Below are positions 4,214-5,775 of a stretch of DNA of 64,000 nucleotides, piece by piece. The notes below the pieces were generated by a model. That model searched no databases and was not told where the DNA came from. It worked only from the letters and a program-made list of their open reading frames with translations. Origin of the DNA: Acutalibacteraceae bacterium (GTDB lineage: Bacteria; Actinomycetota; Coriobacteriia; Coriobacteriales; UMGS124); NCBI GenBank assembly GCA_963619535.1, contig CAVEWV010000004.1:1983-65982 (forward strand), written 5' to 3'. A program made the position numbers and the translations under genes. Each line of letters opens with the position of its first letter. Position 1 is the first letter of the stretch.

Positions 4214-5083
4214 TTAACGCTTGCGGTACTGCGCGATGACGAACTCGATGGGGGTGTCGAGCGTCTGAAGGCCGGCGAGCTTGCCCTTGTCGCGGGCGCT
4301 CGTGCGGTAGTAGTAGGGTGTCATCTGGAAGACGGCCTCGATGTCGTCCGGGCATGCAAGCGTGATGTCGGCGCTCACCTTCGTGGTGCCTACCAGCTCG
4401 AGGCTCGAGCATGCGGGCAGCTTCTCGTCGTTGAGGTAGGGCGTGTCGTAGAGCGCCTGCTTCAGGCCGAAGAGGTGCCGCTCGCCGGGGATGACCGTGA
4501 GGAGAGCGCCGCCCGGACGCAGGATGCGCGCGAACTCCGTCTCGTTGAACGGGGCGAAGAGGTGGGTCGCCACGGCGACGCTTGCGTCGGGCACGGGGAT
4601 GGCCTTGAGGTTGGCCACGAAGTAGGTGGCGCGTCCGCGCTTGGCTGCCAGGCGCACCATCTCCTTGGCCAGGTCGAAGCCGTAGGCGCTCACGCCCGGC
4701 ACGCTTCCCAGGGCGCTCGTGTAGTACCCCTCGCCGCAGCAGATGTCCAGAAGGGGCAGGTCGCCTCGGGGTGCCTGGCCACCGGGCGCGTCCTGAGGCG
4801 CACGGCTTGTGCAGCCAAGCGGGCCGGCCGGCGCACCCGCAAGCTCACCCACAAGCCCCACGAGCTTGTCGCGAAGGGGCTGGTAGTAGCCCTTGTCGAG
4901 GAAGTCGCGCCGGGAGCGCGCCTGCTGCTTGGGGTCGCCCATGGTGTCGCCTGCCTTGGATGAGCGCAGCAGGTTGACGTAGCCCTCGCGGGCCAGGTCG
5001 AACATGTGGCCGGCTTCGCAGCGGGCCTTCTTCTCGCCGAACTCTAGCGGCTTGTGGCACACGGGGCAGGTGAGCAGGGGCAT
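4214..5083 (-). CDS. rlmA: 23S rRNA (guanine-N1)-methyltransferase RlmA/RrmA-like, 289 aa
   Basis: Track ORF 4214..5266, trimmed to ATG 5083. N-terminal zinc ribbon CPVCHKPL...CEAGHMFDLAREGYVNLL. SAM motif LLDICCGEGYY. Confidence 0.7.
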   Translation of the reverse strand: MPLLTCPVCHKPLEFGEKKARCEAGHMFDLAREGYVNLLRSSKAGDTMGDPKQQARSRRDFLDKGYYQPLRDKLVGLVGELAGAPAGPLGCTSRAPQDAPGGQAPRGDLPLLDICCGEGYYTSALGSVPGVSAYGFDLAKEMVRLAAKRGRATYFVANLKAIPVPDASVAVATHLFAPFNETEFARILRPGGALLTVIPGERHLFGLKQALYDTPYLNDEKLPACSSLELVGTTKVSADITLACPDDIEAVFQMTPYYYRTSARDKGKLAGLQTLDTPIEFVIAQYRKR

Positions 5084-5248
5084 GTTCACGACCAATCGGG
5101 ACTTCGGCAGGGAAGGGCGTGGCGGGCCCGGATGGGGCGGGCGCGTCTGATGTAGGCTGCTCATTCTAGCCGTTCGGCGCCCCCATGGCGGCGTGCGTAC
5201 GGCTCGACAGGTGCCGGGCATGCAAATTAAAAAATGTATCGAAATACC

Positions 5249-5277
5249 TTGCATATCCATGCGCATGGTTCTATACT
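5249..5277 (+). promoter_or_regulatory. Near-consensus sigma70-type promoter
   Basis: TTGCAT (5249-5254), 17-nt spacer, TATACT (5272-5277). An A-rich tract AAATTAAAAAATG lies upstream, in otherwise GC-rich DNA. Confidence 0.6.
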
Positions 5278-5365
5278 GCGTGGCAACGAAAGCAAGAGAG
5301 CTCCGAGGGAGCAGCTTTCGCCCTAAGTGCCCAGTTGCGAAGGCGCGACGAAGGAGGTGGCCCCT

Positions 5366-5440
5366 ATGGCCGGCAATTCTTGTGTTAACGACGAGGGCAT
5401 TGAGCCCGGCTCTACGGCCGCCGCCTGCTGGTGGTACTAA
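5366..5440 (+). CDS. Candidate 24-codon small ORF MAGNSCVNDEGIEPGSTAAACWWY
   Basis: AAGGAGG lies 8 nt upstream of ATG 5366. The ORF ends TGC TGG TGG TAC TAA, inside the loop of the CCGCCGCCT/AGGCGGCGG hairpin. It is below the ORF-track length cut-off. Confidence 0.3.
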   Translation: MAGNSCVNDEGIEPGSTAAACWWY

Positions 5441-5509
5441 GACGCCTGATAGGCGGCGGAATTTCTCTCCGGTTCACAGTTTTCTCGCTTCAAGTGCATC
5501 TTCCAGTTT

Positions 5510-5669
5510 GGAGATGAGTCCAAAGGACAGCTAAAAGCGGGGTTTCTTTTCCCACAAGCGATAGTTCCTGGCTGGCTCGATACGTCTCAGGAGATGAGTC
5601 CAAAGTACTGAGTAAGTGCTCGTCACTGCATATTGTTACCGCTTTTATGCATTGAAGGTGAGTCCAAAG
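5510..5669 (+). repeat. Three copies of RTGAGTCCAAAG (two are the 16-mer GGAGATGAGTCCAAAG)
   Basis: 12-mers at 5514-5525, 5594-5605 and 5658-5669, spaced 80 and 64 nt. Each opens a 5-6 codon mini-ORF (MSPKDS, MSPKY, VSPKFC). Confidence 0.6.
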
Positions 5670-5733
5670 TTCTGTTAAGTTGCACCATCGCACGTCATGA
5701 GGAGGGGCGCACCCCTCCAAGGGAGTCACATCA

Positions 5734-5775
5734 GGCGGGGTCGGCGAGAGAGTTTCGTCGGCCCCGCCTTTGTGT
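5734..5775 (+). terminator. Rho-independent terminator
   Basis: 14-bp stem GGCGGGGTCGGCGA / TCGTCGGCCCCGCC (two G-U pairs), 7-nt loop, then TTTGTGT. Confidence 0.7.

What the first reader, a model, noticed from the sequence alone, without database searches (positions are those of the whole stretch)
5249..5775. Orphan ~0.5 kb transcription unit: Trp-Trp sORF in an attenuator-like hairpin plus three copies of a start-codon-containing 12-mer
This unit lies between rlmA (divergent) and the crp-like gene (convergent), in a locally AT-richer stretch. It has the best promoter match in the window: TTGCAT, 17 nt, TATACT, with an A-tract upstream. About 490 nt downstream is a clean intrinsic terminator (14-bp stem plus TTTGTGT). 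No track ORF inside looks coding. The internal elements are as follows. (i) Nested 5' stems at 5283-5337. (ii) AAGGAGG lies 8 nt before ATG 5366 and opens MAGNSCVNDEGIEPGSTAAACWWY. Its TGC TGG TGG TAC TAA end sits in the loop of the 9-bp hairpin CCGCCGCCT/AGGCGGCGG (5418-5459), which is followed by AATTTCTCT. That is the layout of a ribosome-sensing leader peptide, yet no structural gene follows on this strand. (iii) RTGAGTCCAAAG occurs three times (5514, 5594, 5658), and the first two copies are the 16-mer GGAGATGAGTCCAAAG. Each copy opens a 5-6 codon mini-ORF (MSPKDS, MSPKY, VSPKFC). The GGAG abuts the start codon, which argues against ordinary initiation and leaves protein or RNA binding (sponge or decoy) as an alternative. 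(iv) Many GGA motifs are spread along the RNA. I cannot match it to tmRNA, RNase P, SRP, 6S or any riboswitch class I know.
Basis: partly seen in the sequence, partly recalled or inferred. Interest (0 to 1): 0.72.

Follow-up and report, generated by a model that had tools for sequence, protein, structure and literature searches.

The report
Small-peptide RNA with ribosome-docking repeats
This is a real, conserved but unannotated RNA gene of a small group of gut Coriobacteriales; it encodes a 23-24-residue peptide and then carries 3-6 tandem sequences that look like ribosome-binding sites without proper start codons, so it probably makes a micropeptide and also docks ribosomal small subunits.

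Summary
The unit is conserved in at least seven lineages, always just upstream of rlmA and divergent from it, while the gene on the other side changes. Rfam, Pfam and NCBIfam give no match.

The 24-codon ORF behaves like a coding sequence. It has synonymous third-position changes, in-frame indels and a stop that varies between TAA and TAG. The Trp-Trp pair is not conserved (WWY, WWC, GWL, GWF), so this is not a tryptophan attenuator. The GC-rich hairpin around the stop codon is conserved and scores as terminator-like in relatives.

The 12-mer is the core of a 16-nt motif, GGAG-N-UGA-K-UCC-R-AWG, present in 3, 4 or 6 tandem modules. Its conserved bases are complementary to the 16S rRNA 3' tail (UGGAUCACCUCC), and the two variable bases are the two unpaired ones. 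AWG (AAG, sometimes AUG) lies 7 nt after the SD-like part, the same spacing as at the ORF's own ribosome-binding site. An in-frame stop follows within 1-3 codons in 27 of 28 modules.

Best reading: a dual-function RNA that produces a micropeptide and carries an array of pseudo-ribosome-binding sites. The function is inferred and untested.

The parts
5226..5248 (+). A-rich tract upstream of the -35 element (UP-element-like)
   Evidence: An A-run is present upstream of the -35 hexamer in all homologues except L212 (alignment).
5249..5277 (+). Promoter: TTGCAT, 17 nt, TATACT
   Evidence: Both hexamers and the 17-nt spacing are conserved in nine aligned homologues from window, L201, L001, L110, L204, L203, L208, L210 and L212; the variants are TTGCAA and TATATT. 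The consensus scan does not flag it.
5287..5320 (+). 5' stem-loop: outer helix CGAAAGC/GCTTTCG, purine-rich internal loop, inner helix GCTCC/GGAGC
   Evidence: MFE folds. Relatives keep the same shape with a different inner helix (GGGC/GCCC); 2 pairs show compensatory changes in the alignment fold.
5351..5359 (+). Very strong Shine-Dalgarno sequence AAGGAGGTG of the small ORF, inside a block that is invariant across lineages
   Evidence: The block GAAGGAGGTGGCCCCTATGG is identical in all lineages. Predicted duplex with the 16S 3' tail is -20.1 kcal/mol.
5366..5440 (+). Small ORF, 24 codons plus stop: MAGNSCVNDEGIEPGSTAAACWWY
   Evidence: Orthologues are MAGISCVNDEGIEPGSTAAACWWC, MAGTMCNDEGIEPGSMAAACGWL, MAGTTSCNNEG[A/E]EPGSMAAACGWF and MVGTDCGNGEGIEPGSLAAACGWF. 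There are 6 synonymous-only codon columns in this frame against 1 and 2 in the other frames. Indels are in frame and the stop varies TAA/TAG.
5418..5468 (+). GC-rich hairpin (CCGCCGCCT/AGGCGGCGG) enclosing the ORF stop codon, followed by a U-rich tail; a possible internal terminator or attenuator
   Evidence: The arms are invariant in 8 sequences. The scanner calls it terminator-like in L001 and L208. The U-tract is weak in the window, L203 and L212.
5510..5589 (+). Module 1: motif GGAGATGAGTCCAAAG (5510-5525); the frame closes at TAA 5532-5534
   Evidence: duplex with 16S tail -13.8 kcal/mol.
5590..5653 (+). Module 2: motif GGAGATGAGTCCAAAG (5590-5605); the frame closes at TGA 5609-5611
   Evidence: -14.8 kcal/mol.
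5654..5700 (+). Module 3: motif GAAGGTGAGTCCAAAG (5654-5669); the frame closes at TAA 5676-5678
   Evidence: -13.8 kcal/mol.
5701..5718 (+). Invariant hairpin GGAGGGG-CGCA-CCCCTCC followed by AAAG or a close variant (AAGG in the window); an SD-like arm paired to an anti-SD-like arm, resembling a closed module
   Evidence: Identical in all 8 sequences, with no covariation possible. It occurs only once in the window.
5734..5775 (+). Intrinsic terminator: long GC hairpin plus TTTGTGT
   Evidence: 8 pairs have compensatory changes across 8 sequences. The scanner calls the homologous hairpin in L001.
4214..5083 (-). Context: rlmA (23S rRNA G745/G748 methyltransferase family), the only constant neighbour, transcribed divergently
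   Evidence: Pfam PF21302 and methyltransferase domains. The same arrangement is seen in L001, L201, L203, L204, L208, L212 and L216.

Best explanation
The unit is an independently transcribed RNA of about 490 nt, up to about 750 nt in relatives. It is restricted to a small clade of gut Coriobacteriales and has two functional parts.

(1) The 5' third is a small mRNA. It has a 5' hairpin, an invariant and very strong ribosome-binding site, and a conserved 23-24-codon ORF that is most likely translated into an acidic, two-cysteine micropeptide with the pattern M-x-G-...-C-...-N-x-E-G-x-E-P-G-S-x-A-A-A-C-x-W-x. Its last codons and stop codon lie inside a GC-rich, terminator-like hairpin. A ribosome finishing the ORF would therefore melt that hairpin. 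Inference: synthesis of the 3' part is favoured when the ORF is being translated, in the manner of the pyrBI attenuator rather than the trp attenuator.

(2) The 3' two-thirds is an array of 3-6 tandem pseudo-translation-initiation sites. Each carries GGAG-N-UGA-K-UCC-R, which can pair with the 16S rRNA 3' tail UGGAUCACCUCC through 11-12 base pairs, with one mismatch and one bulge. After the normal 7-nt spacing comes AAG (AUG in a few copies), then 1-3 codons and a stop. Inference: these sites dock 30S subunits through the anti-Shine-Dalgarno sequence without supporting productive translation. The RNA would then act as a multivalent ribosome-docking or decoy element. It could titrate or park 30S subunits (or a factor that recognises the ORF's own initiation region, which the modules resemble), and it could at the same time protect the RNA. 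The in-frame stops would discharge any ribosome that does start.

Shown: conservation, the coding signature, the complementarity and the frame closure. Inferred: transcription, translation, 30S binding and the physiological role.
For: A real conserved gene:
- Full or partial homologues with the same order of parts occur in L201, L216, L001, L110, L204-207, L203, L208-210 and L212.
- The promoter hexamers and their spacing are conserved, and the terminator shows 8 compensatory pairs.
- The unit is always upstream of rlmA, although the other neighbour is Crp, LysR or a NarJ-like gene.

Coding ORF:
- 6 synonymous-only codon columns in frame against 1 and 2 in the other frames; three in-frame indels; stop TAA/TAG at the same place.
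- The RBS is invariant.

Hairpin as terminator:
-.

Modules:
- The motif occurs 3 times in the window against 0.18 expected.
- Copy number is 3, 4 or 6.
- Duplex energy with the 16S tail is -10.5 to -17.5 kcal/mol in all 16 modules tested, always in the same register.
- Only 0.4-0.8% of shuffled or random 13-mers pair as well.
- The two freely varying motif positions (N5, K9) are exactly the mismatch and the bulge. R13 (A or G only) would lie opposite a U.
- When N5 is G, another GGAG base is mutated (GAAGGUGA, GGAAGUGA), so one mismatch is always kept.
- The spacing GGAGNU-7 nt-AWG equals GGAGGU-7 nt-AUG at the ORF's own RBS.
- The 16S tail sequence was checked in E. coli. The Coriobacteriia anti-SD CCUCCUUUC is given in PMC10783764, Table 1.

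Frame closure:
- The first in-frame stop falls within 7 codons in 27 of 28 modules, against 1 of 28 and 3 of 28 in the other frames.
- The stop identity switches among TGA, TAA and TAG between orthologues, and there are synonymous neighbours: AGC/AGT, TAC/TAT, AGG/CGG.

No fixed secondary structure explains the motif:
- The candidate hairpin has no more pairing or covariation than shuffles.
Against: - There are no expression, ribosome-profiling or binding data. Everything is inferred from six or seven related lineages.
- The 16S complementarity was found post hoc, and its stand-alone p-value (about 0.005) is modest. A GGAG core is common in purine-rich RNA.
- The U opposite R13, and perhaps GG1529-1530, are at or in the base of helix 45 and may not be free to pair.
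- The invariant A14 and G16 and the conserved stop are not explained by 16S pairing alone.
- AAG is a very poor initiation codon, so it is unclear which ribosomes the stops serve.
- The motif is often predicted to be base-paired within the RNA.
- Three to six sites per RNA could titrate ribosomes only if the RNA is very abundant.
- The internal hairpin's U-tract is weak in the window, L203 and L212, so attenuation may be minor.
- The peptide has no homologue outside the clade, so its function is unknown.
Confidence: 0.45

Rival explanations
1. The RNA is a sponge for a dedicated RNA-binding protein or a base-pairing sRNA, in the manner of CsrB/RsmZ. The 16-nt motif would be the binding site of an unknown factor, possibly a translational repressor that also recognises the ORF's own initiation region. 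The resemblance to a Shine-Dalgarno sequence would exist only because the factor's natural targets are ribosome-binding sites.
For: The motif is conserved as primary sequence in different local structural contexts, with no covariation support for a hairpin. Copy number changes rapidly between close relatives (3, 4, 6), as expected for a dosage-sensitive decoy. The motif shares 10 of 16 bases and the same register with the ORF's invariant initiation region.
Against: No candidate protein is linked to the locus; the only constant neighbour is rlmA. CsrA, Hfq and ProQ are generally lacking in Actinomycetota (general knowledge; not tested here). An antisense sRNA partner would not tolerate the G/U alternation at K9. 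This model does not explain the in-frame stops. No motif-like or complementary site is found elsewhere in the 64-kb window beyond chance.
Confidence: 0.2
2. The modules are translated minigenes. Each would be a real tiny ORF, either NUG-start M-[S/I/V]-P-[K/M]-x or AWG-start with 2-4 codons, like the lambda bar minigenes or the pentapeptide minigenes. The products or the translation events themselves (peptidyl-tRNA drop-off, ribosome cycling, drug sensing) would be the function.
For: Frame-specific closure occurs in 27 of 28 modules, with stop-to-stop switches and synonymous neighbouring changes. Three modules carry AUG at the properly spaced position, giving AUG UAC MGG UAR with AGG/CGG and UAA/UAG variation. 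The adjacent rlmA modifies the exit-tunnel hairpin 35 of 23S rRNA, which is a thematic link only.
Against: NUG at motif positions 5-7 has no usable SD: the GGAG abuts it and there is no purine tract upstream. At the well-spaced position, 24 of 27 distinct modules have AAG, which is not a start codon. Synonymous sites inside the motif are frozen (always xxU, CCR never CCY, always AAG), so the nucleotide sequence rather than the peptide is selected. The last sense codon is hypervariable. One copy has UCG in place of NUG.
Confidence: 0.15
3. This is a plain small-protein mRNA. Only the 24-codon ORF would be functional, and the downstream repeats would be a fast-evolving, tandemly duplicated 3' UTR whose SD-like sequences merely stabilise the transcript, in the manner of STAB-SD (a bound 30S subunit blocking RNase J).
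For: The ORF carries the strongest coding and RBS conservation. The tandem duplication is evidently recent (modules alternate in two subtypes in L110 and L204). STAB-SD elements are known in Gram-positive bacteria (general knowledge; term found in PMC5737220).
Against: The 16-nt motif, the 3' invariant hairpin and the frame closure are conserved across lineages in which the rest of the 3' region is randomised. Known STAB-SD elements act near the 5' end, not downstream of the ORF.
Confidence: 0.12
4. This is a Trp-sensing (or other amino-acid-sensing) leader peptide and attenuator.
For: The stop codon lies in the loop of a hairpin followed by a U-rich tail.
Against: The Trp-Trp pair is not conserved; only one Trp is invariant. 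No alternative antiterminator helix was found. No structural gene follows in any lineage. The only repeated codons are the three Ala codons that form the hairpin arm.
Confidence: 0.05
5. The repeats act at the DNA level, as operators, iterons or GANTC methylation sites, rather than in an RNA.
For: The core GA[G/T]TC matches GANTC in 26 of 27 distinct modules. The repeats are direct and variably spaced.
Against: The conserved promoter and the covarying terminator bracket the repeats on one strand. Conservation extends asymmetrically over 16 nt. The adjacent regulator genes differ between lineages. The spacing of 64-83 bp follows no helical phasing.
Confidence: 0.03

Closest known systems
Dual-function small RNAs (S. 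aureus RNAIII/hld, B. subtilis SR1/SR1P, E. coli SgrS/SgrT, AzuCR)
   Same: Each is an independent transcription unit of a few hundred nucleotides with its own promoter and terminator. Each has a short conserved ORF (hld is 26 codons, here 23-24) plus a separate non-coding domain with repeated short motifs presumed to act in trans. RNAIII is about 514 nt, and the window copy here is about 490 nt.
   Different: There is no sequence or structural homology (Rfam negative). The RNAIII motifs are C-rich anti-SD-like loops that bind the SD of mRNAs. Here the repeated motifs are themselves SD-like and would bind the ribosome's anti-SD. The repeat array varies in copy number. Regulatory activity has not been shown.
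Multi-site protein sponges CsrB/CsrC/RsmX-Z
   Same: Many copies of a short purine-rich motif containing GGA, variable copy number and a decoy logic.
   Different: The CsrA sites are GGA in hairpin loops of about 5-7 nt. Here the motif is 16 nt long, has no consistent hairpin and is complementary to 16S rRNA. No CsrA is known in this clade.
STAB-SD elements (B. thuringiensis cryIIIA) and ribosome-standby sites
   Same: A Shine-Dalgarno-like sequence that is not used to start a protein but binds the 16S 3' end or the 30S subunit.
   Different: Those are single elements in 5' UTRs that protect or serve a downstream ORF. Here there are 3-6 copies downstream of the ORF. Each keeps one mismatch and one bulge, and each is followed by AAG/AUG plus a stop.
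Lambda bar minigenes and pentapeptide minigenes
   Same: An SD followed by a 2-5-codon ORF and a stop. The frames here are closed after 1-3 codons beyond AWG, or 5-7 codons from NUG.
   Different: Those have canonical start codons at proper spacing. Here the well-spaced codon is usually AAG.
pyrBI-type translation-coupled attenuator; trp/his-type leader peptides
   Same: A leader ORF whose end overlaps a terminator hairpin, so that a ribosome at the end of the ORF can prevent hairpin formation.
   Different: No regulatory codon run is conserved. No antiterminator alternative was identified. What lies downstream is a non-coding repeat array, not biosynthetic genes.

Membership tests
Trp-type leader-peptide attenuator | Tandem codons of the sensed amino acid conserved in the leader ORF | tested here: not met
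   The C-termini are CWWY, CWWC, CGWL and CGWF; only one Trp is invariant.
Trp-type leader-peptide attenuator | A terminator hairpin after the leader ORF, with a mutually exclusive antiterminator | tested here: inconclusive
   The hairpin plus U-rich tail is conserved and scored terminator-like in L001 and L208. No conserved antiterminator pairing was found.
Trp-type leader-peptide attenuator | Regulated structural genes downstream on the same strand | tested here: not met
   In every lineage only the repeat modules, a terminator and a convergent or unrelated gene follow.
Dual-function sRNA (RNAIII-like class, functional definition) | An autonomous transcription unit with its own promoter and terminator | tested here: met
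   The promoter hexamers are conserved and the terminator covaries. This is a prediction only; there are no RNA data.
Dual-function sRNA (RNAIII-like class, functional definition) | A translated small ORF | tested here: inconclusive
   The coding-type substitution pattern and the invariant strong RBS support it. Translation itself cannot be tested here.
Dual-function sRNA (RNAIII-like class, functional definition) | A separate trans-acting regulatory activity of the RNA | not testable with these tools
   This is only inferred from the conserved repeated motif and its complementarity to 16S rRNA.
CsrB/Rsm-type sponge | Repeated GGA motifs presented in short hairpin loops | tested here: not met
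   In the candidate hairpin the GGA lies in the stem, not the loop. The hairpin shows no excess pairing or covariation over shuffles.
Type III toxin-antitoxin antitoxin RNA (ToxI-like) | A tandem repeat RNA immediately upstream of a toxin endoribonuclease gene | tested here: not met
   No ORF follows on the strand, and no ORF is conserved across lineages within the unit.
tmRNA, T-box, riboswitches and other curated RNA families | A match to the family covariance model or to ARAGORN | tested here: not met
   The best Rfam E-value is 1.3 in the window and 0.07-0.23 in L204 and L212, all far below gathering scores. ARAGORN finds only a tRNA-Ile elsewhere in the window.
Shine-Dalgarno / STAB-SD-type 16S-binding element | Complementarity to the single-stranded 3' tail of 16S rRNA | tested here: met
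   There are 11-12 pairs in the same register in all 16 modules tested, at -10.5 to -17.5 kcal/mol. Only 0.4-0.8% of random or shuffled 13-mers do as well.
Shine-Dalgarno / STAB-SD-type 16S-binding element | Demonstrated 30S binding or a stabilising effect | not testable with these tools
   This needs toeprinting, filter binding or RNA half-life measurements.
Known peptide families (RiPP precursors and others) | A match to Pfam or NCBIfam, or homologues outside the clade | tested here: not met
   There are no hits at E <= 10. An exhaustive phmmer search of 1.84 billion representatives finds only the same species' over-extended gene call.

The most novel reading that the evidence does not exclude
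The RNA is a natural ribosome sponge. It would be an abundant transcript whose 3-6 deliberately imperfect, start-codon-less Shine-Dalgarno sites capture 30S subunits through the anti-SD tail. Production of the sponge domain would be gated by translation of the RNA's own micropeptide ORF through the hairpin at its stop codon. The cell's translational capacity would thereby feed back on the pool of free 30S subunits. This would be a counterpart for the ribosome of what 6S RNA is for RNA polymerase, and it sits next to a ribosome-modification gene (rlmA).
Probability: 0.15. Interest if true: 0.85.

Novelty: new variant of a known kind. Interest (0 to 1): 0.6.

Why it matters
Coriobacteriales are common gut bacteria in which almost nothing is known about RNA-based regulation, and they lack the classical RNA chaperones. 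This locus gives three things:
- a conserved, previously unannotated micropeptide gene;
- a clear example of a bacterial RNA that combines a coding part with a modular, copy-number-variable non-coding array;
- a concrete, testable idea that the array binds the anti-Shine-Dalgarno tail of 16S rRNA.

If the array does dock or titrate 30S subunits, it would be a new way of regulating or buffering translation. If it does not, the motif still defines the binding site of an unknown factor in a phylum where such factors are being sought. The tandem modules also break short-read assemblies, which explains why the locus is missed or truncated in MAGs.

Tried and rejected
RNA and peptide family searches
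- Rfam at permissive thresholds on the window, L204 and L212 gave only chance-level hits, including a C/D-box snoRNA-like hit at E = 0.07.
- ARAGORN found no tRNA or tmRNA in the unit.
- Pfam and NCBIfam gave nothing for the peptide.

Searches for more homologues
- An exhaustive phmmer search with the 37-aa extended ORF found only the same species.
- The same kind of search with the antisense 79-aa ORF found nothing.
- The rlmA-anchored genome scan showed the unit in L001 only. It is absent from 79 Collinsella loci and from L211 and L213.
- The metagenome pattern scan gave 120 stretches. Only L110 and L184 are homologous. The rest are chance matches, for example a 29-nt satellite in L083.

Structural ideas for the modules
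- A module hairpin (GGA/UCC with an extended stem) has no more pairing or covariation than shuffles.
- RNAalifold on anchored modules predicts no structure.
- A pseudoknot between the loop AUGAG and a downstream CUCAU, a K-turn or C/D-box reading, a T-loop and an anticodon-mimic reading were each checked by eye against the module variants and are not consistently kept.

Other readings
- A mimic of the RlmA substrate was considered. E. coli 23S hairpin 35 is CUAAUGUUGAAAAAUUAG, which has no real similarity.
- Coupling of upstream ORFs to the UGA inside the motif was considered, but no ORF ends there (worked through from the sequences).
- Internal promoters for leaderless mini-ORFs were considered, but no -10-like hexamers are present.
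- No long ORF on either strand is conserved between lineages.
- No motif or complementary site occurs elsewhere in the window beyond chance.

Literature
- Searches found no description of this RNA.
Full report
**1. What is in the window**

- A promoter-like pair: TTGCAT (5249-5254), 17 nt, TATACT (5272-5277), behind an A-tract.
- A nested 5' stem-loop at 5287-5320.
- AAGGAGGTG at 5351-5359.
- A 24-codon ORF at 5366-5440, MAGNSCVNDEGIEPGSTAAACWWY*.
- A 9-bp GC hairpin (5418-5426 / 5451-5459) with the stop codon in its loop, followed by AATTTCTCT.
- Three copies of RTGAGTCCAAAG at 5514, 5594 and 5658.
- A long hairpin at 5734-5768 followed by TTTGTGT.

The 12-mer occurs three times against 0.18 expected, and none of 100 shuffles reaches three. 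GC falls to 0.47-0.60 inside the unit against about 0.70 in the flanks. The RNA folds better than shuffles, z = -3.0. The flanking genes are an RlmA-family 23S rRNA methyltransferase and a Crp-like regulator.

The simple consensus scanner calls neither the promoter (8 of 12 matches) nor the terminators in the window. Their standing rests on conservation, described below.

**2. It matches nothing known**

Rfam at permissive thresholds gives only chance-level hits for the window and for two longer homologues. ARAGORN finds no tRNA or tmRNA in the unit. The peptide has no Pfam or NCBIfam match. An exhaustive profile-free search of 1.84 billion protein representatives returns only an over-extended gene call from the same species.

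**3. It is conserved, and tied to rlmA**

I anchored on RlmA in a genome scan, ran a motif-pair scan of metagenomes, and looked up contigs that encode RlmA relatives of 71-99% identity. This recovered homologous units in these loci:
- L201 (same species, GCA_963586935.1), L216 and L001;
- L110 and L204-L207;
- L203, L208-L210 and L212;
- truncated copies at contig ends in L184 and L202.

All copies whose flanks are held have the same order of parts and all lie immediately upstream of rlmA, transcribed divergently. The gene on the other side is Crp-like, LysR-type or NarJ-like, depending on lineage. The unit is absent from 79 Collinsella rlmA loci and from two closer relatives in which crp or a tetR-family gene abuts rlmA.

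The promoter hexamers and their 17-nt spacing are kept in nine aligned homologues. The 3' terminator hairpin has eight pairs with compensatory changes and is called by the scanner in L001. The 5' stem-loop keeps its shape with a different inner helix, GCUCC/GGAGC against GGGC/GCCC.

**4. The small ORF looks coding, but it is not a Trp leader**

The orthologous peptides are:
- MAGISCVNDEGIEPGSTAAACWWC
- MAGTMCNDEGIEPGSMAAACGWL
- MAGTTSCNNEG[A/E]EPGSMAAACGWF
- MVGTDCGNGEGIEPGSLAAACGWF

. In the ORF frame, six codon columns vary only synonymously, against one and two in the other frames. The three indels are multiples of three. The stop stays in place while changing between TAA and TAG. The ribosome-binding site and start region (GAAGGAGGTGGCCCCTATGG) are invariant.

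Only one Trp is invariant, so a tryptophan-sensing attenuator is excluded.

The GC hairpin whose 5' arm is the Ala-Ala-Ala-Cys codons is invariant. With its U-rich tail it is scored terminator-like in L001 and L208, but the tail is weak in the window, L203 and L212. The geometry means that a ribosome completing the ORF would melt the hairpin. This is the pyrBI type of coupling, and here it remains an inference.

**5. The 12-mer is the core of a 16-nt motif in tandem modules**

Across 27 distinct modules the motif is GGAG-N-UGA-K-UCC-R-A-W-G. Copy number is 3 in the window, L203, L208 and L212, 4 in L001, and 6 in L110 and L204. In the six-copy arrays two module subtypes alternate, which indicates recent tandem duplication.

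The apparent start codon is AUG, UUG, GUG, CUG or, once, UCG.

The local predicted structure differs between modules. The one recurrent hairpin (GGA/UCC with an extended stem) shows no more pairing or covariation than shuffled controls. The motif is therefore conserved as primary sequence.

**6. What the motif matches**

Its conserved bases are complementary to the 3' tail of 16S rRNA, 5'-UGGAUCACCUCC-3':
- GGAG pairs with CUCC;
- UGA pairs with UCA;
- UCCR pairs with UGGA.

RNAduplex places all 16 modules tested in this same register, at -10.5 to -17.5 kcal/mol. Only 0.4-0.8% of shuffled or random 13-mers pair as well. The two freely variable positions, N5 and K9, are exactly the mismatch (opposite C1535) and the single bulge. 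R13 is purine-only, as expected opposite a U. In the three copies where N5 is G, which would make a perfect GGAGGUGA, another base of GGAG is mutated (GAAGGUGA, GGAAGUGA).

The 16S tail was read from E. coli. Its conservation in bacteria is general knowledge: it is the site of the universal primer AAGGAGGTGATCCAGCC. The Coriobacteriia anti-SD CCUCCUUUC is tabulated in PMC10783764.

The 'NUG' and the 'UGA' inside the motif are therefore best read as parts of an extended Shine-Dalgarno-like sequence.

The distance from the U of GGAGNU to the A-W-G triplet is 7 nt. This is identical to the distance from GGAGGU to the AUG of the small ORF, and the motif shares 10 of 16 bases with that initiation region. 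A-W-G is AAG in 24 modules and AUG in 3.

Each module thus looks like a translation-initiation region whose start codon is usually disabled.

**7. The reading frame is nevertheless closed**

In the frame shared by NUG and AWG, the first stop falls within seven codons of NUG in 27 of 28 modules. In the other two frames this holds for 1 of 28 and 3 of 28. The stop changes identity between orthologous or paralogous modules without being lost:
- TAA/TGA in window_1 against L216_1;
- TGA/TAA in the L110 modules;
- TAA/TAG in L203_2 against L208_2 and in L203_3 against L212_3.

The neighbouring changes are synonymous: AGC/AGT, TAC/TAT, AGG/CGG.

At the same time the synonymous sites inside the motif are frozen: always xxU, CCA or CCG but never CCY, and always AAG. 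So the peptide is not what is selected.

I read this as evidence that ribosomes do engage the modules and that selection discharges them quickly. Which codon they start from is unresolved, and I flag it as unexplained.

**8. The 3' end**

An invariant hairpin, GGAGGGG-CGCA-CCCCUCC followed by AAAG or a close variant (AAGG in the window), precedes the terminator. It pairs an SD-like arm with an anti-SD-like arm, and it ends with the same UCC-A-A-(A/G)-G as the motif. It may be a closed variant of a module. Its role is unknown.

**9. Most likely mechanism and rivals**

The best-supported reading is a dual-function RNA with two parts:
- a strongly translated micropeptide ORF whose termination hairpin may gate read-through;
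- a 3' array of pseudo-initiation sites that dock 30S subunits through the anti-SD tail.

The confidence differs for each part of this reading:

| Claim | Confidence |
|---|---|
| It is a genuine conserved RNA gene | about 0.9 |
| The ORF is translated | about 0.7 |
| The modules act through 16S complementarity | about 0.5 |
| Any particular physiological role (30S parking or titration, decoy for a factor that binds the ORF's own initiation region, stabilisation) | 0.3 or less |

The rivals are:
- a sponge for a dedicated protein or sRNA (0.2);
- genuinely translated minigenes (0.15);
- a plain small-protein mRNA with a stabilising repetitive 3' UTR (0.12);
- an amino-acid-sensing attenuator (0.05);
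- DNA-level repeats (0.03).

**10. Comparison with known systems**

In functional terms the unit resembles dual-function sRNAs such as RNAIII/hld: similar size, a short ORF and repeated motifs. It differs in that its motifs are SD-like rather than anti-SD-like. It also resembles Csr/Rsm sponges (multivalency, copy-number change), STAB-SD elements (an SD used for binding, not for initiation) and lambda bar minigenes (an SD plus a 2-3-codon ORF). It is a member of none of them by sequence or by their defining features; see the membership table.

**11. Verdict**

The orphan transcription unit, the real small ORF and the decoy-type repeats hold. The Trp attenuator and the MSPK peptides do not.
- It is a new variant of a known kind, clade-restricted, and supported only in silico.
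- Interest is moderate to high, because the 16S-complementary, start-less, copy-variable array is unusual and directly testable.

Noticed in passing
L184, L202, L206, L210, L215, L216, L217 (contig ends): Seven independent assemblies end inside or right next to the unit; L216, for example, stops in the second motif. The tandem modules evidently break short-read assemblies, so copy numbers read from MAGs (3, 4, 6) may be underestimates and the locus is often truncated.
   Followed up: partly
L203:2255-2275 (- strand): The T-run before the ORF stop is one base shorter than in L208 (TGGTTTAAAAGG against TGGTTTTAAAAGG). This extends the ORF to 31 codons, ending at a TAA just after the hairpin. The contig has only about 4x coverage, so this may be an assembly error or a real frameshift variant.
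   Followed up: no
window 5510-5669 and all modules in relatives: The module core GA[G/T]TC fits GANTC (a HinfI/CcrM-type methylation site) in 26 of 27 distinct modules, with the variable base at the N position.
   Followed up: no
L204:1828-1899 (- strand): There is a weak Rfam hit of one module to a C/D-box snoRNA model (GlsR9, 20.6 bits against a gathering score of 95, E = 0.07). The motif GAUGAG ... CUGA resembles C and D boxes. I took this as chance, because the CUGA becomes UUAA in some copies.
   Followed up: partly
window 5340-5377 and homologues: The 38-nt block TGCGAAGGCGCGACGAAGGAGGTGGCCCCTATGGCCGG is identical in all lineages except L203 (one C-to-T change) and L212, in which only the RBS-to-start core is kept; the surrounding sequence is about 25% diverged. 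It contains a small hairpin, GGCC-CCTAT-GGCC, that holds the start codon. In most relatives (weaker in the window lineage) an upstream ACCU..CC can pair with the SD. This suggests regulated access to the ribosome-binding site.
   Followed up: partly
L211:1267-1397 and L213:1931-2001: Relatives with RlmA at 70-73% identity lack the unit altogether; crp or a tetR-family gene lies 70-130 nt upstream of rlmA. The unit therefore behaves like an insertion or deletion of about 650 nt between crp and rlmA, and its distribution within the clade is patchy.
   Followed up: partly
L083:423-2519: The metagenome pattern scan also picked up an unrelated 29-nt satellite (CTGAGACAAAAGTTTGGTCTGAGCGATCT, about 71 copies) that contains the 11-mer by chance.
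   Followed up: yes
window 5185-5534 (+) and protein P0121: Public gene calls for the same species include a 74-residue 'protein' whose last 37 residues are the upstream-extended frame of the small ORF. This is an over-extended call that hides the real 24-codon ORF.
   Followed up: partly
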